NCBI GenBank assembly: GCA_965207375.1 | Contig: OZ242274.1 | Span: forward strand, 1,952,001 to 2,016,000 | Direction of reading: 5' to 3' | DNA: 64,000 nucleotides | From: Nitrosopumilaceae archaeon | GTDB taxonomy: Archaea; Thermoproteota; Nitrososphaeria; Nitrososphaerales; Nitrosopumilaceae | Part shown: positions 17,816-45,141 of the stretch, piece after piece | Numbering within the stretch: position 1 is the stretch's first letter | Layout: every line of letters begins with the position of its first letter | The notes under the pieces: generated by a model | The model's input: only the letters and a program-made list of their open reading frames with translations | Database searches by the model: none | What the model was told of the DNA's origin: nothing | Position numbers and translations under genes: made by a program

Positions 17816-19831
17816 ATGGCAGCTGCCACAGGATTGTTATTATTTACACCGACTTTAGCAGATGCCCATTCTCCAACTGATGATGAATTTTTATGCAAAA
17901 GTGACAAATTGATGGCGCAGTTTGGAGCGGAACTGACCCATCCCCTTAATCCAGATGGTACAATAGACTACACTGCCTTCATTTTGTCAGGAGGACATCA
18001 AGGTCAACTTGGTGTTTACACCGACGCTGATGGTATAACCTACACATGCATTAATTATTTTGACAGTGCATTACAGTTTTACAGGGAATTACGAGTACAA
18101 TATAACGGACGTACAGACACATACATTACACCACCTGGCCAAAATTACCATGACGGAATAGAACGAATTGACATTTTCCATCATAATGGCTCTCTAAAAC
18201 AATCTATACTATATGAGGCAAAAACCATTCTAGGTGTTGAAGATGAAGACGATCCAAATAGTAACCCAAATCAAGGCGTGTTTATGAAACTAGAACATCA
18301 TGAAGATGGCACACTCAAAGAAATAATCAATCTTGAGGACGGTGAATCTCCAAGTGAAATAAAATTCAAAGAGGGCGGAAATATTGCAACAGAAGTTATC
18401 AAACGTGACTTGAAGGCAGAAAACACCACAAGGACAGATGAAAACGGTAATTTCCTATTACCTCAAAATAAAACCACATGGCATGATAACGGAATCCAAA
18501 AGAGTTATTATGAAATATTTCCAGACGGTAAAGACTTGAGTATCGAGTGGAATGAACGTGGAACTATGACCAAATATGTCAAAACATATTCCAATGATGT
18601 GGTGTATGTTTTACTAGAAACATCTCATGCGAATTTCATAAGCGCTCAAAATATTGCAGATATTTCAAAACCTGCCCTTGTGGCTGTTGTACGTGATGAC
18701 CTTAGAAGGTATTACTCAATTATTGATGTGGATACCCAGAGAGCAGCTATACACGGGAATATTAGGAATTTTGTAGAAGGTCACCTTCATGATTTGAATC
18801 ATGTACATCTTACCCATAATATAAACACGGTAACCGCTGCAATTGCAAATGGCATTTATAATGCGATTGTTATTACAGAAGCAGACAATAATCGTGGCAA
18901 AAACTATGTTGCTAGTCTTGCAGATGGTTTTGTAAGTACAGGAATTGCAAATATTGATGATAATGCCAGACTTAATCAACTCTTGACTCTGCATGACCAT
19001 ACAAACATTGACGGATTGGGTCACGTCACTTACCTCATATACGGCATAAATATGCAGACCCAATTATACCATGACGGCTCTACAGGTACTGAACTATGTT
19101 ATTCTGAAAATAGAGCAGCTATAACATGCACTGATGATTCTAGGGCAGAATATTTTGAATTTCTAGAGCGTATGATTCCAAGAACAGGCGGCAGCACTCA
19201 TGACACGGCATCTGCAAAATATGACCGTAACTTGAGTAACGAGATAACACCAGAGTTGTTAATTGCTGTACCAGGTTATGTAGATACATCTTTACTCAAT
19301 GAAGTAAGATATACAAAATCGCTATTGGAACACGGTAAATCAATAGCAAATGGCCCTAATGATCATGAGACTTGGAACAAGGTACTAGCAGCATTTGGAC
19401 ATTTGGATCAAGGCAAAATGACAGCAGCTGAAGCCCAAGTCAATGCTGATACATACGGAGGCCCATTATGGTCAAGAATTGCAGCAGCAATTAGCGAGTT
19501 AGAATCAGATACACCTGCAGGCATTAACGCAGAATCAATAGAACAGCAACCTATACCGGATTCAATACCTGATTCTATACAAGATACACAAGTTAAGCCT
19601 GAACCAGCAATAGACCCAGAACTAATTGAGGATGTAAAGTACCTTGCATCTATGACACATCACGGTGAGCAGCACGTTGAGCGATGGAACAGGGTTTTGG
19701 CAGCATTTGGGATTTTACAACATGATAACCCAATTACAGCTGCCGAGGCTGAAGCAAATTCAAAGAAATATTCTAGTCCACTCTGGCCTAAAATTGCAGA
19801 GGTTTTGAAAGTAATAGAGAATGCCAGCTAA
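17816..19831 (+). CDS. secreted protein with MORN/YwqK-like repeats and a duplicated C-terminal helical domain
   Basis: hydrophobic N-terminus ending ADA; repeats FHHNGSLK, HHEDGTLK, WHDNGIQK, WNERGTM; two WN(K/R)VLAAFG domains. Confidence 0.75.
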   Translation: MAAATGLLLFTPTLADAHSPTDDEFLCKSDKLMAQFGAELTHPLNPDGTIDYTAFILSGGHQGQLGVYTDADGITYTCINYFDSALQFYRELRVQYNGRTDTYITPPGQNYHDGIERIDIFHHNGSLKQSILYEAKTILGVEDEDDPNSNPNQGVFMKLEHHEDGTLKEIINLEDGESPSEIKFKEGGNIATEVIKRDLKAENTTRTDENGNFLLPQNKTTWHDNGIQKSYYEIFPDGKDLSIEWNERGTMTKYVKTYSNDVVYVLLETSHANFISAQNIADISKPALVAVVRDDLRRYYSIIDVDTQRAAIHGNIRNFVEGHLHDLNHVHLTHNINTVTAAIANGIYNAIVITEADNNRGKNYVASLADGFVSTGIANIDDNARLNQLLTLHDHTNIDGLGHVTYLIYGINMQTQLYHDGSTGTELCYSENRAAITCTDDSRAEYFEFLERMIPRTGGSTHDTASAKYDRNLSNEITPELLIAVPGYVDTSLLNEVRYTKSLLEHGKSIANGPNDHETWNKVLAAFGHLDQGKMTAAEAQVNADTYGGPLWSRIAAAISELESDTPAGINAESIEQQPIPDSIPDSIQDTQVKPEPAIDPELIEDVKYLASMTHHGEQHVERWNRVLAAFGILQHDNPITAAEAEANSKKYSSPLWPKIAEVLKVIENAS

Positions 19832-22642: not shown

Positions 22643-22685
22643 GTATGGTAGATTTCAAATGGCTTTAAAAAATTTATTCCAAATA

Positions 22686-22786
22686 CAGCTAAGCGAAATG
22701 CGGGTAAAATAGGCCAAAATCTACTCCAAAATGCAAACAGAACAATAGGGACTGGGTAAGAGTTTGGATCACATTTTGCTTAACTG
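22686..22786 (+). mobile_element. MITE family A, copy 1 (101 bp)
   Basis: CAGCTAAGCGAAATG...CACATTTTGCTTAACTG terminal inverted repeats. Confidence 0.8.
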
Positions 22787-22998
22787 ACTAGTTCATTTAG
22801 AATAGATAATCTACAAGTCTGTTTTGCTGATGTGCCTGTTCCATCATTTGAAAGATAATGGAACATTACATCATGTATGTTTTAGATATGGAGACAGAAA
22901 TTAGATCAGCAGGTACAAATTTCTTGGTAAGCAAATGGTGGTATGTAACTAGGTTAAAGCTTCAAAAAGCCAAACAATTACAAATATTAGGTAAAATG

Positions 22999-23072
22999 TG
23001 GACCCGACGGGATTTGAACCCGTGACCTATTGATTTTCAAACAATCGCTCTACCAAGCTGAACCACAGGCCC
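22999..23072 (-). tRNA. tRNA with GAA anticodon but Ala-type acceptor stem (G3:U70, A73)
   Basis: folds GGGCCTG/CGGGTCC-A; D arm GTTC/GAGC; anticodon arm ATTGT-TTGAAAA-TCAAT; T arm ACGGG-TTCAAAT-CCCGT; upstream TATAAA. Confidence 0.8.
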
Positions 23073-23152
23073 ACAAAGATTTTATACTTTATACACGTAA
23101 TAATGTTGATTTTCAAACAATAAAGGCTGAATGCTGAACTAGCCTGTTTTTT

Positions 23153-23434
23153 TTAATTTCCGTCTATGATTCTAAGCTCATTCCATTTTAGATCAATAGC
23201 AGCATTACCTCTATAATCCCATAAATCCTCACCGTTGATAATTAGGGTAATTTCACCTGTCTCTCCTGGCTTTAATTTCTCAAAGTTTATTGTGTGATTC
23301 ATAGGTAGGTCATAGATTAATTCTAAATCCTGTATTATATTTCTGTCATCCTCGTTCCTTGCCTCAATGATAACCTCTAATGTCTCCTTGTCATGAATGT
23401 CTAGCCTAAGTTCATCTAACGGTTTACCACCTAG
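23153..23434 (-). pseudogene. start-less 93-codon frame, foreign gene remnant
   Basis: LGGKPLDELRLDIHDKETLEVIIEARNED...LKPGETGEITLIINGEDLWDY...; preceded by in-frame TAA. Confidence 0.45.
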
Positions 23435-23680
23435 TTAGGGGGTCAAGACCTTTGATTTGGCATAGTTTTACTTTCATCTGATTATTCTATGTGTCTGGAT
23501 TGATTTTAGTGCCTTATTCGTTTTGTCTTCTGTACTGCCTGCACTGGTTTATTTTGGCTTTGCAAAGATGGTCTTGTGTTGTTTTACCTTTGTGCGTTTT
23601 TGTATGACATTGCATCTACCTTGACATAATCAGTAGGTAGAAATTCACCCACTATCGTGCATTTGCATCGTACGGCATTT

Positions 23681-23781
23681 CATCTAAACGAAATGTGGGT
23701 AAAATAGGCCAAAATATATTCTAAAATGCAAAGAGAATAATAGTGGAGGGATAAGAATTTGGGCCACATTTTGCTTAGCTG
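23681..23781 (+). mobile_element. MITE family A, copy 2 (101 bp)
   Basis: CATCTAAACGAAATGTGG...CCACATTTTGCTTAGCTG. Confidence 0.8.
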
Positions 23782-23989
23782 AAATATGGGCAAGTCAAAC
23801 ACTCCAAATTTTAGATCATAGGAAGGTTTGGATAGATACAAAAAGTAACTATACCTTATAACTCTAACAGTGTGCTAGCACGTAAAAGATGTCATGGTCG
23901 TTTTGTCTTGTATTGCTTGAATTTTGATTGACATAAAGATTCAAGATTTAGATGTCAAGACTTGGCAATCTGGTGTAAAAAAACCAAGG

Positions 23990-33150: not shown

Positions 33151-33225
33151 CGGGCCCGACCGGATTCGAACCGGCGACCTAACGCTCCGCAAGCGTTCGC
33201 ACTATCCATGCTATGCAACGAGCCC
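33151..33225 (-). tRNA. tRNA-Arg(GCG)
   Basis: GGGCTCG/CGGGCCC-G; AACGC-TTGCGGA-GCGTT; GGTTCGAATCC. Confidence 0.93.
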
Positions 33226-37182: not shown

Positions 37183-37305
37183 TGGTCCCAAGCGAAGGAA
37201 TTGAACCTTCGACAACCCGGTTTCTGTATGCCTGATATGCTGTTTTACGGTCAGCCAGAGCCGACATCTACAGCCGGAAGCTCTACCAGGCTGAGCTAGC
37301 TTGGG
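37183..37305 (-). tRNA. tRNA-Tyr(GTA) with ~46-nt intron at 37/38, CCA encoded
   Basis: C1:G72 acceptor CCCAAGC/GCTTGGG-A-CCA; CTGT/ACAG central BHB helix. Confidence 0.92.
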
Positions 37306-44874: not shown

Positions 44875-44975
44875 GGTAGGTTTACCTAGCTAGGTAAGGT
44901 GTCGCCCTGAAGCGGTTGCCTCAGAGAGGCGATTGTGTCACGAGCACATCGTGGGTTCGAATCCCACACCTACCG
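44875..44975 (+). tRNA. Ser-type (long variable arm, G73) tRNA with GAA anticodon and 14-nt BHB intron (44913-44926)
   Basis: GGTAGGT/ACCTACC-G; TCGCC/GGCGA stem; BHB CTGA-AGC / TCAG-AGA; V arm TGTG...CACA; GGTTCGAATCC; upstream TATAAA 44843. Confidence 0.85.
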
Positions 44976-45141
44976 CTAGAATCTATAACTATATTAATTT
45001 TCAAGACTATATCACGCCTGAAACCATGACACGAAAATACACGTAACAGATCGACTTTCTGAAGTTACTTTGATTTTTAGATGATCCATGAAACTAGACA
45101 GTTAATGCTAAAGAATCGAAAGTGGGAATATTACATATTTT

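What the first reader, a model, noticed from the sequence alone, without database searches (positions are those of the whole stretch)
22999..23072. tRNA with alanine identity (G3:U70, A73) but anticodon GAA
Seen: the minus strand folds as GGGCCTG/CGGGTCC-A, giving G1:C72, G2:C71, G3:U70 and A73. The anticodon loop is TT-GAA-AA on an AT-rich stem with a U31:U39 mismatch, and position 20 is U. Established: G3:U70 is the major AlaRS determinant. Inference: it would be alanylated and read UUU/UUC, or it is a virus-derived or degenerating tRNA.
Basis: partly seen in the sequence, partly recalled or inferred. Interest (0 to 1): 0.75.

Follow-up and report, generated by a model that had tools for sequence, protein, structure and literature searches.

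The report
Alanine-type tRNA with phenylalanine anticodon
A well-formed extra tRNA gene that bears the mark for loading alanine but would read phenylalanine codons belongs to a mobile, multi-copy gene family in ammonia-oxidising archaea, and each copy sits beside a short matching antisense sequence that may keep such a mistranslating tRNA in check.

Summary
Window 22999-23072 (-) is a clean cloverleaf (Rfam tRNA 63.2 bits) with G3:U70, A73, anticodon GAA, A37 and a U31.U39 non-pair. It is not the genome's tRNA-Phe, which lies 54 kb away and shares 44 of 74 bases with it. It is one of about 8 paralogues in this genome and sits in a 1.3-kb insertion missing from a same-genus genome. Similar genes turned up in 12 of 401 genomes of the family. 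They share an alanine-type acceptor stem and compensatory changes in all four stems. The 31:39 position is usually unpaired. Anticodons seen were GAA, CAG, AAG, GAG and GAU. Every intact copy has, about 49 nt upstream, a copy of its own anticodon arm. Read on the other strand, this copy gives a TATA-like box, a seed complementary to the tRNA's anticodon arm, a hairpin and a T-run, which looks like a small antisense RNA gene. My best reading (0.42) is an accessory, alanine-accepting tRNA that misreads hydrophobic codons and is gated by its own antisense RNA, like a toxin-antitoxin pair. No expression or charging data exist. Rivals are an integration-site relic, a mobile-element tRNA-Phe, another RNA role, or a decaying pseudogene.

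The parts
22999..23072 (-). tRNA-shaped gene 'T': alanine-type acceptor stem (G3:U70, A73), anticodon GAA, A37, U31.U39 non-pair
   Evidence: scores 83.7 bits with the family model R1
23073..23105 (.). 33-nt A/T-rich spacer with two opposed TATA-like boxes. One lies about -33..-25 from the tRNA 5' end on the minus strand. The other lies about -26..-19 from the start of the antisense seed on the plus strand.
   Evidence: read; the promoter function is inferred
23106..23121 (.). 16-nt exact direct copy of the tRNA's own anticodon arm (5' stem strand, loop and first bases of the 3' strand), 49 nt upstream of the tRNA
   Evidence: longest exact match 16 nt, against 8 or fewer for ordinary tRNA genes of the genome
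23104..23154 (+). predicted small antisense RNA gene: 5' seed complementary to the tRNA anticodon arm, hairpin (about 23124-23145) and a run of eight T (23147-23154)
   Evidence: 17 modules of 6 genomes show the same layout; no transcript evidence
23153..23434 (-). remnant of a reading frame (93 codons between stops) that ends just before the module; paralogous to the stretch upstream of two other family copies
   Evidence: no Pfam match
22783..22988 (.). copy of a roughly 200-bp dispersed repeat that starts 10 nt after the tRNA 3' end
   Evidence: 9 further places in the genome at 82-88% identity
22681..22787 (.). copy of a roughly 105-bp inverted-repeat element (MITE-like; about 50 places in the genome), direct repeat of the copy at 23680-23787
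23680..23787 (.). second copy of the same MITE-like element, on the other side of the module
22643..23989 (.). 1,347-bp intergenic stretch holding all of the above. In a same-genus genome the two flanking genes (DsbA-like, zinc-finger ORF) are only about 45-135 bp apart.

Best explanation
The feature is one intact member of an accessory, mobile-element-associated family of tRNA genes found sporadically in this archaeal family. Members keep a full tRNA fold and the acceptor end of tRNA-Ala (G1:C72, G2:C71, G3:U70, mostly C4:G69, A73). They carry anticodons for hydrophobic amino acids (here GAA for Phe; elsewhere CAG, AAG and GAG for Leu and GAU for Ile). Their anticodon stem is usually weakened by a non-pair at 31:39. 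Each gene forms a module of about 170-200 bp with a divergent small antisense RNA gene whose 5' end is complementary to that tRNA's own anticodon arm. Proposed mechanism: the tRNA is transcribed, processed and loaded with alanine by AlaRS, which ignores the anticodon. It would then put alanine at UUU/UUC codons, which is harmful. The cognate antisense RNA pairs with the loop and 5' strand of the weak anticodon stem and so blocks decoding. The pair would then work like an RNA-RNA toxin-antitoxin or addiction module carried on mobile DNA. What is shown: the structure, the family, covariation, the accessory location, and the matched upstream copy with its hairpin and T-run. What is inferred: transcription of both RNAs, alanylation, decoding, toxicity and neutralisation.
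For: The gene is a well-formed tRNA.

It belongs to a family. There are about 8 copies in this genome. In 401 genomes of the family, a pattern fixing G1-G3, U33, A35, A37, a T-loop and U70-A73 hit 12 genomes at 24 distinct places, with 0 hits for the reversed control.

There is RNA-level selection. In 18 aligned genes from 11 genomes, 93.0% of cells pair against 70.8% in shuffles, and 16 of 21 pairs show changes on both sides, including 5 of 7 acceptor pairs and 4 of 4 D-stem pairs. G3:U70 is kept in 17 of 18, and 31:39 is unpaired in 16 of 18.

G3 does not simply follow from U70. A search that left positions 3 and 70 free still returned mostly G3:U70 genes.

Other anticodons occur on the same scaffold, found with a covariance model. 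They are GAU, GAG, AAG x3, CAG and GAA, so 7 of 8 new members have A35.

The location is accessory and lies beside provirus-like, conjugation-like or IS genes in relatives.

The upstream copy is specific. The longest exact match between gene and upstream DNA is 11-16 nt at offset -48/-49 in the family, against 8 or fewer in ordinary tRNAs of the same genome, apart from one 11-nt match at a different offset in an intron-bearing tRNA-Gln call (68 genes examined). It tracks each gene's own variant in G000, G004, G017, G019, G197, G660 and G672.

On the antisense strand, all 17 modules examined give a seed, a hairpin and a T-run with a TATA-like box about 19-35 nt upstream. The cognate duplex averages -26.6 kcal/mol against -10.6 for non-cognate pairs and is the best in 17 of 17 rows.

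In G004 the four copies share only the module, and within it the anticodon arm and its copy vary together while the rest of the tRNA is nearly invariant.

From papers (passages read): AlaRS relies on G3:U70 and not on the anticodon (abstracts of PMC6451123 and PMC6055181). In yeast, tRNA-Ala with a GAA anticodon slowed growth in single copy and gave no transformants in multicopy. The CAG version was among the most harmful, CAU had no effect, and U34 versions were mildest (PMC10543346). This matches the anticodons seen here, which include no U34 and no CAU.
Against: There is no transcript, 5'-end, charging or proteome evidence. No RNA run was listed.

RNAalifold found no consensus structure for the antisense RNAs, so their hairpins are supported one at a time only. 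The T-run was also used to delimit them.

The cognate-best result follows partly from how the copy was defined.

The patterns fixed parts of the loop (and also G3 and U70). Model R1 was trained on GAA genes. Conservation of A35 and A37 is therefore only partly unbiased.

The 31:39 non-pair is not universal. By my reading of the 24 places, 19 have it, 3 have fully paired stems and 2 have a mismatch elsewhere.

G3:U70 alone does not prove alanylation.

Several modules lack a T-run directly after the tRNA. Several paralogues in this genome are decayed.

Partial 3' copies and nested partial duplications in G197 fit a recombination-site history.

The tRNA also carries A73 and GAA, which PheRS could use.
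Confidence: 0.42

Rival explanations
1. Integration-site module. The tRNA-like gene is mainly a DNA attachment site carried by, or targeted by, integrative elements. The upstream copy is then a recombination scar or a second recombinase-binding site, and the RNA itself has no role in translation.
For: The module lies in an insertion. In G017 it lies at the edge of a block with terminase and primase genes. At C1 1.407 Mb and in G387 it lies beside conjugation-like genes (T2SSF, HerA/TrwB-like). Partial 3' copies with shared downstream sequence exist at C1 1437788-1437829 and 800941-800970. G197 has nested partial 5' duplications. The four G004 copies share only the module and have different flanks. 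Thaumarchaeal integrated elements use short att sites (8-26 bp, median 17), and 39 of 68 lie in tRNA genes (PMC6563490, passages read). The 11-18-nt copies fall in that size range.
Against: No tyrosine recombinase lies near any copy in this genome; the only Pfam PF00589 hits on C1 are at 151 kb and 307 kb. Compensatory changes between the two acceptor strands and in the D stem need selection on the RNA. A DNA site gives no reason to keep G3 rather than A3 opposite U70. The two copies flank only about 60 bp, far too little for an element. The hairpin and T-run next to the copy, at a fixed distance, are left unexplained.
Confidence: 0.2
2. A mobile-element-supplied tRNA-Phe. PheRS charges it through GAA and A73, and it serves codon supply or survives a host nuclease that cuts the normal tRNA-Phe anticodon loop. 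G3:U70 is tolerated.
For: It has GAA and A73. A37 and an altered loop and stem differ from the host tRNA-Phe, which has G37. It is linked to mobile elements. G3:U70 occurs in ordinary-looking non-Ala tRNAs elsewhere.
Against: The same scaffold carries Leu anticodons (AAG, GAG, CAG) without the long variable arm. From established knowledge, not tested here, archaeal LeuRS needs that arm. The whole top of the acceptor stem equals that of tRNA-Ala, and G3 is kept in 17 of 18. This reading does not explain the matched antisense copy.
Confidence: 0.12
3. A structured RNA with another role: a decoy for an anticodon-directed enzyme, an alanine donor outside the ribosome, or a copy-control or incompatibility RNA pair of mobile elements.
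For: The fold and loop are conserved. Pairing with the matched upstream copy is specific to each gene. Defence-type neighbours occur at some copies: DUF3800, an HD protein, PIN, a DNA methylase, BrxC/D.
Against: No conserved protein partner lies next to the module; the neighbours differ from copy to copy. Conservation of U33, A35 and A37 together with a full tRNA core points to the ribosome.
Confidence: 0.1
4. A decaying duplicate of a tRNA gene with no function; its features arose by chance.
For: Some paralogues are clearly broken (C1 1355323, 1444064 and about 1233022). This copy sits among repeats and next to an ORF remnant.
Against: The cloverleaf and all tertiary positions are intact. The family has compensatory changes and occurs in several genera, with 0 control hits. 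The 16 of 16 identity with the upstream copy would not be expected to survive unconstrained decay.
Confidence: 0.06

Closest known systems
Canonical tRNA-Ala of the same genome (anticodons UGC, GGC, CGC)
   Same: The top of the acceptor stem (G1:C72, G2:C71, G3:U70, C4:G69) and A73 are the same. The 3' part is very similar (26 of 30 identical to two of them). The tRNA core is complete.
   Different: The anticodon is GAA instead of NGC, with A37. Position 31:39 is not paired. The gene is accessory and multi-copy. It has the upstream anticodon-arm copy, which the tRNA-Ala genes lack.
Canonical archaeal tRNA-Phe(GAA) (this genome: C1 1921024-1921100, minus strand)
   Same: Anticodon GAA and discriminator A73.
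   Different: Only 44 of 74 positions are identical. The host tRNA-Phe has G37, C3:G70, a G/C-rich fully paired anticodon stem and an encoded CCA. No orthologue of the target occupies the matching site in the same-genus genome G001, and BLAST of the unit against the four same-genus genomes gave only generic tRNA-level similarity.
Mistranslating tRNA-Ala anticodon variants (engineered in yeast; natural human variants)
   Same: Alanine identity is combined with a non-alanine anticodon. In yeast the GAA and CAG versions are harmful (PMC10543346, passages read; PMC12084884, listing and abstract start only).
   Different: Those are single mutations of housekeeping genes or laboratory constructs. 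This is a conserved, diversified, mobile family in archaea with a usually weakened anticodon stem and a linked complementary sequence.
Bacterial tRNA-ProA / ProRSx deliberate mistranslation family
   Same: It is a natural tRNA family whose anticodon does not match its charging identity (PMC10404621, listing and abstract start only; details recalled).
   Different: That system depends on a dedicated synthetase paralogue and places proline. Here the host AlaRS would suffice and no linked protein gene is conserved.
RNA-based toxin-antitoxin pairs (type I antisense antitoxins; type VIII such as CreTA, recalled)
   Same: A compact two-RNA module on accessory DNA, specificity set by base pairing, and several diverged, mutually specific copies per genome.
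   Different: The supposed toxin would be a tRNA. The antisense gene does not overlap its target; it carries a copy of it. Neither toxicity nor neutralisation has been tested. Searches listed no paper describing such a pair.
tRNA-gene attachment sites of archaeal integrated elements
   Same: A tRNA-shaped sequence at the edge of provirus-like or conjugative blocks, with partial copies nearby and short repeats of att-site size.
   Different: It is not a housekeeping tRNA. No integrase lies beside it. The repeat flanks only the promoter and the 5' half. The RNA fold is under selection.

Membership tests
tRNA (Rfam RF00005) | Score at or above the curated gathering score, with a full-length cloverleaf | tested here: met
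   63.2 bits against 29, model positions 1-71 of 71; ARAGORN also calls it
tRNA-Ala (by identity) | G3:U70 wobble pair with A73 and G1:C72, G2:C71 | tested here: met
   Read; kept in 17 of 18 family members
tRNA-Ala (by identity) | Anticodon NGC reading GCN codons | tested here: not met
   The anticodon is GAA
tRNA-Ala (by identity) | Charged with alanine by AlaRS | not testable with these tools
   Inference from the general rule (abstracts of PMC6451123 and PMC6055181). One search shows G3:U70 in ordinary-looking non-Ala tRNAs, so the rule is not proof.
tRNA-Phe | Anticodon GAA and discriminator A73 | tested here: met
tRNA-Phe | Likeness to the genome's own tRNA-Phe, and orthologues in relatives | tested here: not met
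   44 of 74 identical, with A37 in place of G37. BLAST of the unit found only generic tRNA similarity in 40 relatives. The syntenic site in G001 is empty.
RNA toxin-antitoxin module | Two tightly linked genes, the antitoxin specific for its own toxin | tested here: inconclusive
   Linkage and cognate complementarity are met in 17 modules. The antisense gene is predicted only, and RNAalifold gave no consensus.
RNA toxin-antitoxin module | The toxin harms the cell and the antitoxin relieves the harm | not testable with these tools
   The only support is by analogy: yeast tRNA-Ala(GAA) and tRNA-Ala(CAG) are harmful
att site of an integrated element | Direct repeats that bound a mobile element, with an integrase gene in or beside it | tested here: not met
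   No PF00589 hit near any copy in this genome. The repeat pair spans about 60 bp. Mobile-element genes do lie next to copies in relatives, so a link with integration remains possible.

The most novel reading that the evidence does not exclude
The module is a new kind of toxin-antitoxin pair in which the toxin is itself a transfer RNA. This would be an alanine-charged tRNA built to misread abundant hydrophobic codons (Phe, Leu, Ile). It would be held silent by a dedicated antisense RNA that pairs with its deliberately weak anticodon arm. Several mutually specific variants would stabilise, or compete among, mobile elements of ammonia-oxidising archaea.
Probability: 0.3. Interest if true: 0.92.

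Novelty: new variant of a known kind. Interest (0 to 1): 0.8.

Why it matters
Natural tRNAs whose charging identity and anticodon disagree are rare, and they bear directly on how the genetic code is kept, bent or used as a weapon. This one is not a single odd gene. It is a conserved, diversified family in widespread marine and soil nitrifiers, it carries exactly the kind of anticodons that make tRNA-Ala harmful in yeast, and it has a built-in complementary partner. If the partner is a real antisense RNA, the module offers a simple, testable case of regulated, deliberate mistranslation, or of a tRNA acting as a toxin. It would also provide a set of naturally orthogonal tRNA/antisense pairs. Even under the plainest reading, annotation pipelines will label these genes 'tRNA-Phe', 'tRNA-Leu' or 'tRNA-Ile' and so miscount the tRNA sets of these genomes.

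Tried and rejected
Expression: no RNA holder was listed for the locus. The only reads laid were DNA contigs.

BLAST of the 216-nt unit against 40 relatives gave only generic T-arm similarity.

I looked for an integrase. Pfam on ORFs around eight loci of this genome and five loci of relatives, PHROGs and a whole-genome PF00589 search gave none next to a copy.

One G3:U70 hit, L360, has a poor anticodon stem. Absence from viruses therefore cannot be claimed.

Of its 119 loci, only two Nitrosopumilus-type loci (L468, L554) have the upstream copy. An apparent 17-nt copy in L450 is simply a neighbouring paralogous tRNA, and L464 looks like chance. A Methanosarcinales locus (L470) has an alanine-type acceptor with GAA but no upstream copy.

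RNAalifold on the 17 predicted antisense RNAs gave no consensus structure.

I considered and dropped the following explanations of the upstream copy:
- Target-site duplication or a minicircle insertion: the spacing of about 60 bp is too small.
- A retro-copied 5' tRNA half: the A-run is on the wrong side.
- A split tRNA or intron arrangement: the copy lacks the acceptor strand and I saw no bulge-helix-bulge.
- A terminator of an upstream gene: the flanks differ among the G004 copies and the T-run is on the other strand.
- A diversity-generating retroelement or CRISPR-type arrangement: I saw no repeat or template features of either kind.

The closeness of a canonical tRNA-Phe 18 kb from the G017 copy looks coincidental, because host genes lie between them.

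Supplementary tables of PMC6563490, which list the target tRNAs of integrated elements, could not be seen. They may already list some of these genes as targets.

Full report
1. THE OBSERVATION

The minus strand of window 22999-23072 is a 74-nt tRNA. ARAGORN reports tRNA-Phe (GAA) at 22998-23072. Rfam's tRNA model gives 63.2 bits against a gathering score of 29, over its full length. From the sequence, the acceptor stem is G1:C72, G2:C71, G3:U70, C4:G69, C5:G68, U6:G67, G7:C66 with A73. The loop is U32 U33 G34 A35 A36 A37 A38. The anticodon stem has four A/U-rich pairs and a U31.U39 non-pair. The usual tertiary positions are all present. The strand folds better than its shuffles, at -26.2 against -17.75 +/- 2.87 kcal/mol, and 3 of 200 shuffles fold as well. 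DNA contigs of two public runs cover 22898-23370 without a difference.

2. IT IS NOT THE GENOME'S tRNA-Phe

A scan of the whole assembly finds an ordinary archaeal tRNA-Phe at C1 1921024-1921100 (minus strand). That gene has C3:G70, G37, a G/C-rich anticodon stem and an encoded CCA. The target shares 44 of 74 positions with it. The target's 3' part is closest to tRNA-Ala, at 26 of 30. By eye, G3:U70 in contig C1 occurs only in the three tRNA-Ala genes and in the family described next. The register of three genes was ambiguous in the script.

3. A FAMILY IN THIS GENOME

ARAGORN, BLAST and a family covariance model find eight related genes on C1, at 234287, 823191, about 1233022, 1341226, 1355323, 1407365, 1444064 and the target at 1974999. 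Six have GAA and two have AAG. Three are visibly damaged: the acceptor 3' strand at 1355323, A1 and a short D arm at 1444064, and a 5' deletion at 1233022. Two further 3' fragments lie at 1437788-1437829 and 800941-800970.

4. AN ACCESSORY LOCATION

In the same-genus genome G001 the DsbA-like gene and the zinc-finger ORF that flank the target are about 45-135 bp apart. In this genome the gap is 1,347 bp. That gap holds the tRNA, a remnant of a reading frame, a 200-bp dispersed repeat and two direct copies of a 105-bp MITE-like element that has about 50 places in the genome.

Pfam found no integrase beside any copy in this genome. A whole-genome search for PF00589 found hits on C1 only at 151 kb and 307 kb.

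In relatives the genes lie beside mobile DNA:
- In G017, next to a block with a terminase large subunit and primase genes.
- At C1 1.407 Mb and in G387, next to T2SSF and HerA/TrwB-like genes.
- Often beside IS transposases.

5. THE FAMILY IN RELATIVES

BLAST of the unit found nothing beyond generic tRNA similarity in 40 relatives, so I used patterns.

-. A pattern with G1-G3, U33-GAA, a T-loop and U70-A73 hit 12 of 401 genomes of the order, against 6 reversed-pattern control hits in 5 genomes. The cloverleaf-like hits were in G000, G017, G019 and G387, all in one family. The other hits looked like chance or coding sequence.
-. A pattern that left positions 3 and 70 free hit 17 of 401 genomes of the family, against control hits in 2 genomes. 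By my reading, the cloverleaf-like hits are in G004, G017, G019 (3), G197, G387 (2), G429, G509, G660 and G672, all with G3:U70 and A73. Two exceptions are G630 (U3.U70) and G513 (C3:G70, U73).
-. A pattern that left positions 34 and 36 free, but fixed G1-G3, A35, A37 and U70-A73, hit 12 of 401 genomes at 24 distinct places with 0 control hits. By my count the anticodons are GAA 15, CAG 4, AAG 3, GAG 1 and GAU 1.
-. A covariance model built from 18 genes found no further member in this genome. In five other genomes it found eight new members, with anticodons GAU, GAG, AAG (three), CAG and GAA, plus one gene with an odd loop. Seven of the eight keep U33, A35 and A37.

These searches are samples. 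Incomplete genomes may lack tRNAs, and the patterns fix part of what is then counted.

6. SELECTION ON THE RNA

On the 18-gene alignment, 93.0% of cells form standard pairs against 70.8% in column shuffles (0 of 500 shuffles reach the observed value). Sliding the partners gives 37-51%. Sixteen of 21 pairs have changes on both sides, including 5 of 7 acceptor pairs, 4 of 4 D-stem pairs and all 5 anticodon-stem columns. G3:U70 is kept in 17 of 18, and the 31:39 column pair is unpaired in 16 of 18.

Compensation between the two acceptor strands, about 60 nt apart, cannot be explained by a DNA site.

G3 is not forced by U70. Most of them have perfect anticodon stems.

Among the 24 places, I read 19 with a 31:39 non-pair, 3 with fully paired stems and 2 with a mismatch elsewhere. 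The weak stem is therefore usual but not universal.

7. THE UPSTREAM COPY

About 49 nt upstream of each family member lies a direct copy of that member's own anticodon arm. For the target it is 16 of 16 nt, at window 23106-23121.

Over all 68 ARAGORN calls of the assembly, the longest exact match between a gene and its 110 upstream bases is as follows:
- 11-16 nt at offset -48/-49 for six alanine-type genes that ARAGORN called (five GAA and the AAG gene at 234 kb); the GAA gene at 823 kb has only 7.
- 13 nt for a serine-type GAA gene.
- 11 nt for an intron-bearing Gln call.
- 8 nt or fewer for all the rest.

The copy follows each gene's own variant in G004, G017, G019, G197, G660 and G672 as well. 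The real tRNA-Ala genes lack it.

In G004 the four copies share only about 165-200 bp, running from an A-run about 100 nt upstream to the tRNA 3' end, and have unrelated flanks. Within that unit the tRNA outside the anticodon arm is nearly invariant. The anticodon arm and its upstream copy differ at many positions, and they differ together.

G197 shows nested partial duplications of the 5' half.

8. READING THE COPY ON THE OTHER STRAND

In all 17 modules examined, the complementary strand gives the same four elements in order:
- a TATA-like box about 19-35 nt upstream of the copy;
- a stretch complementary to the tRNA's loop and 5' stem strand (and in G004 the whole arm);
- a hairpin of 4-8 pairs whose sequence differs between genera;
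- a run of 5-9 T directly after the hairpin.

For the target this is window 23104-23154 (+). The identity with the tRNA ends close to where an archaeal start site would fall. This would explain why the match stops 2-3 nt after the loop in most modules.

Predicted seed-tRNA duplexes average -26.6 kcal/mol for cognate pairs against -10.6 (sd 4.5) for non-cognate pairs, and the cognate pair is best in 17 of 17 rows. This follows partly from how the copy was found.

RNAalifold gave no consensus structure for these RNAs, because the hairpins do not align in register. The T-run was also used to delimit them. The antisense gene is therefore a prediction.

9. HOW IT MOST LIKELY WORKS

Shown so far: an accessory tRNA gene family under selection for a tRNA fold, an alanine-type acceptor end, U33/A35/A37 and a usually weakened anticodon stem, each gene linked to a complementary sequence that has the layout of a small RNA gene.

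Established elsewhere: AlaRS relies on G3:U70 and does not touch the anticodon (abstracts of PMC6451123 and PMC6055181). In yeast, tRNA-Ala with GAA slowed growth in single copy and gave no transformants in multicopy. [quoted passage not shown] The anticodons seen here (GAA, CAG, AAG, GAG, GAU; none with U34, no CAU) fit the harmful set.

Inference: the tRNA is loaded with alanine and would place it at Phe codons (elsewhere Leu or Ile codons). The antisense RNA pairs with the exposed loop and the easily opened stem and blocks it. The diverged, mutually specific variants within one genome are what addiction or competition modules on mobile DNA typically look like. I put this at 0.42.

10. RIVALS

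An integration-site module (0.20) is supported by the neighbours, the partial copies, the att-size repeats (PMC6563490, passages read) and the different flanks in G004. It does not explain acceptor and D-stem covariation, the retention of G3, the 60-bp spacing, or the hairpin and T-run.

A mobile-element tRNA-Phe charged by PheRS (0.12) fits GAA and A73. It does not fit the Leu anticodons on a short-arm scaffold or the antisense copy.

Another RNA role (0.10) and plain decay (0.06) are less likely.

A caution applies to all readings. G3:U70 alone therefore does not prove alanylation. In that sample the upstream copy occurs only in two Nitrosopumilus-type loci.

11. COMPARISON AND NOVELTY

The gene is a tRNA by Rfam's test. 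It meets the acceptor-end definition of tRNA-Ala but not the anticodon. It meets the anticodon of tRNA-Phe but not likeness or orthology.

The closest known things are engineered or sporadic tRNA-Ala anticodon variants, the bacterial tRNA-ProA family, RNA-based toxin-antitoxin pairs, and tRNA att sites.

Searches listed no paper that describes an archaeal alanine-identity tRNA family with non-alanine anticodons, or a tRNA paired with an antisense copy of its anticodon arm. The library lacks most subscription journals, and supplements were closed.

I rate it a new variant of a known kind. The boldest reading still open is a tRNA that acts as a toxin with an RNA antitoxin (probability about 0.3).

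12. VERDICT

The finding is real, and it is more interesting than a single odd tRNA. The function rests on inference until transcripts and charging are measured.

Noticed in passing
G000 C1 1677242-1677326 (+) and C1 349757-349842 (-): Two serine-type tRNA-like genes (long variable arm, shared acceptor stem) carry non-serine anticodons: GAA in a loop identical to that of the host tRNA-Phe, and UAU. Both have a partial copy of themselves upstream (13-nt and 10-nt exact pieces, and a roughly 75% identical 46-nt copy). SerRS also ignores the anticodon (recalled), so the same phenomenon may exist on a second scaffold.
   Followed up: partly
window 44875-44976 (+): ARAGORN calls a 102-nt serine-like tRNA with a 14-nt insert and anticodon GAA. 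Rfam at gathering threshold does not report it, and the family model R1 gives 36.6 bits. No upstream copy was seen.
   Followed up: partly
window 22681-22787 and 23680-23787; about 50 places on C1: A roughly 105-bp element with terminal inverted repeats (MITE-like) is spread through the genome. Copies flank the target module and also lie on both sides of the family copy at C1 823 kb.
   Followed up: partly
window 17816-19831 (+) and paralogues near C1 234 kb, 1341 kb and 1355 kb: A family of roughly 670-740-residue proteins without Pfam or PHROGs matches lies next to several family copies, on either side and either strand.
   Followed up: partly
G000 contigs C2-C4 (2.1 Mb in all, about 37% G+C): These contigs carry tRNA genes of a different style, in small arrays (several Arg-CCT, Thr, Arg-TCG), unlike the intron-bearing archaeal set on C1. 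They may belong to another organism than C1.
   Followed up: no
L073 (G197 C1 about 541137-541330, minus strand): One family gene is interrupted by a nested duplication: an intact 5' half, 34 unrelated bases that begin with a fragment of another anticodon-arm variant, then a second copy of positions 6-43 (37 of 37 identical) joined to the 3' half.
   Followed up: partly
L057 1294-3628 (G017 C1 about 33.3-35.6 kb): The terminase large subunit of the provirus-like block is split into an N-terminal ORF and a C-terminal ORF, with a 220-residue ORF between them.
   Followed up: no
L441, L452, L515, L540 (Streptomyces records, one titled as a plasmid): tRNA genes with an alanine-type acceptor stem (G3:U70, A73) and anticodon UAA, which would read the rare UUA codon. 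They have no upstream copy.
   Followed up: no
L470 (record titled uncultured Methanosarcinales archaeon): An alanine-type acceptor stem with anticodon GAA and A37, a fully paired anticodon stem and no upstream copy. The alanine/GAA combination may therefore occur outside this archaeal family.
   Followed up: no
window 37186-37305 (-) and 33151-33225 (-): An ordinary intron-bearing tRNA-Tyr (49-nt insert in the Rfam alignment) and a tRNA-Arg (GCG). They are the only other Rfam hits in the window.
   Followed up: no
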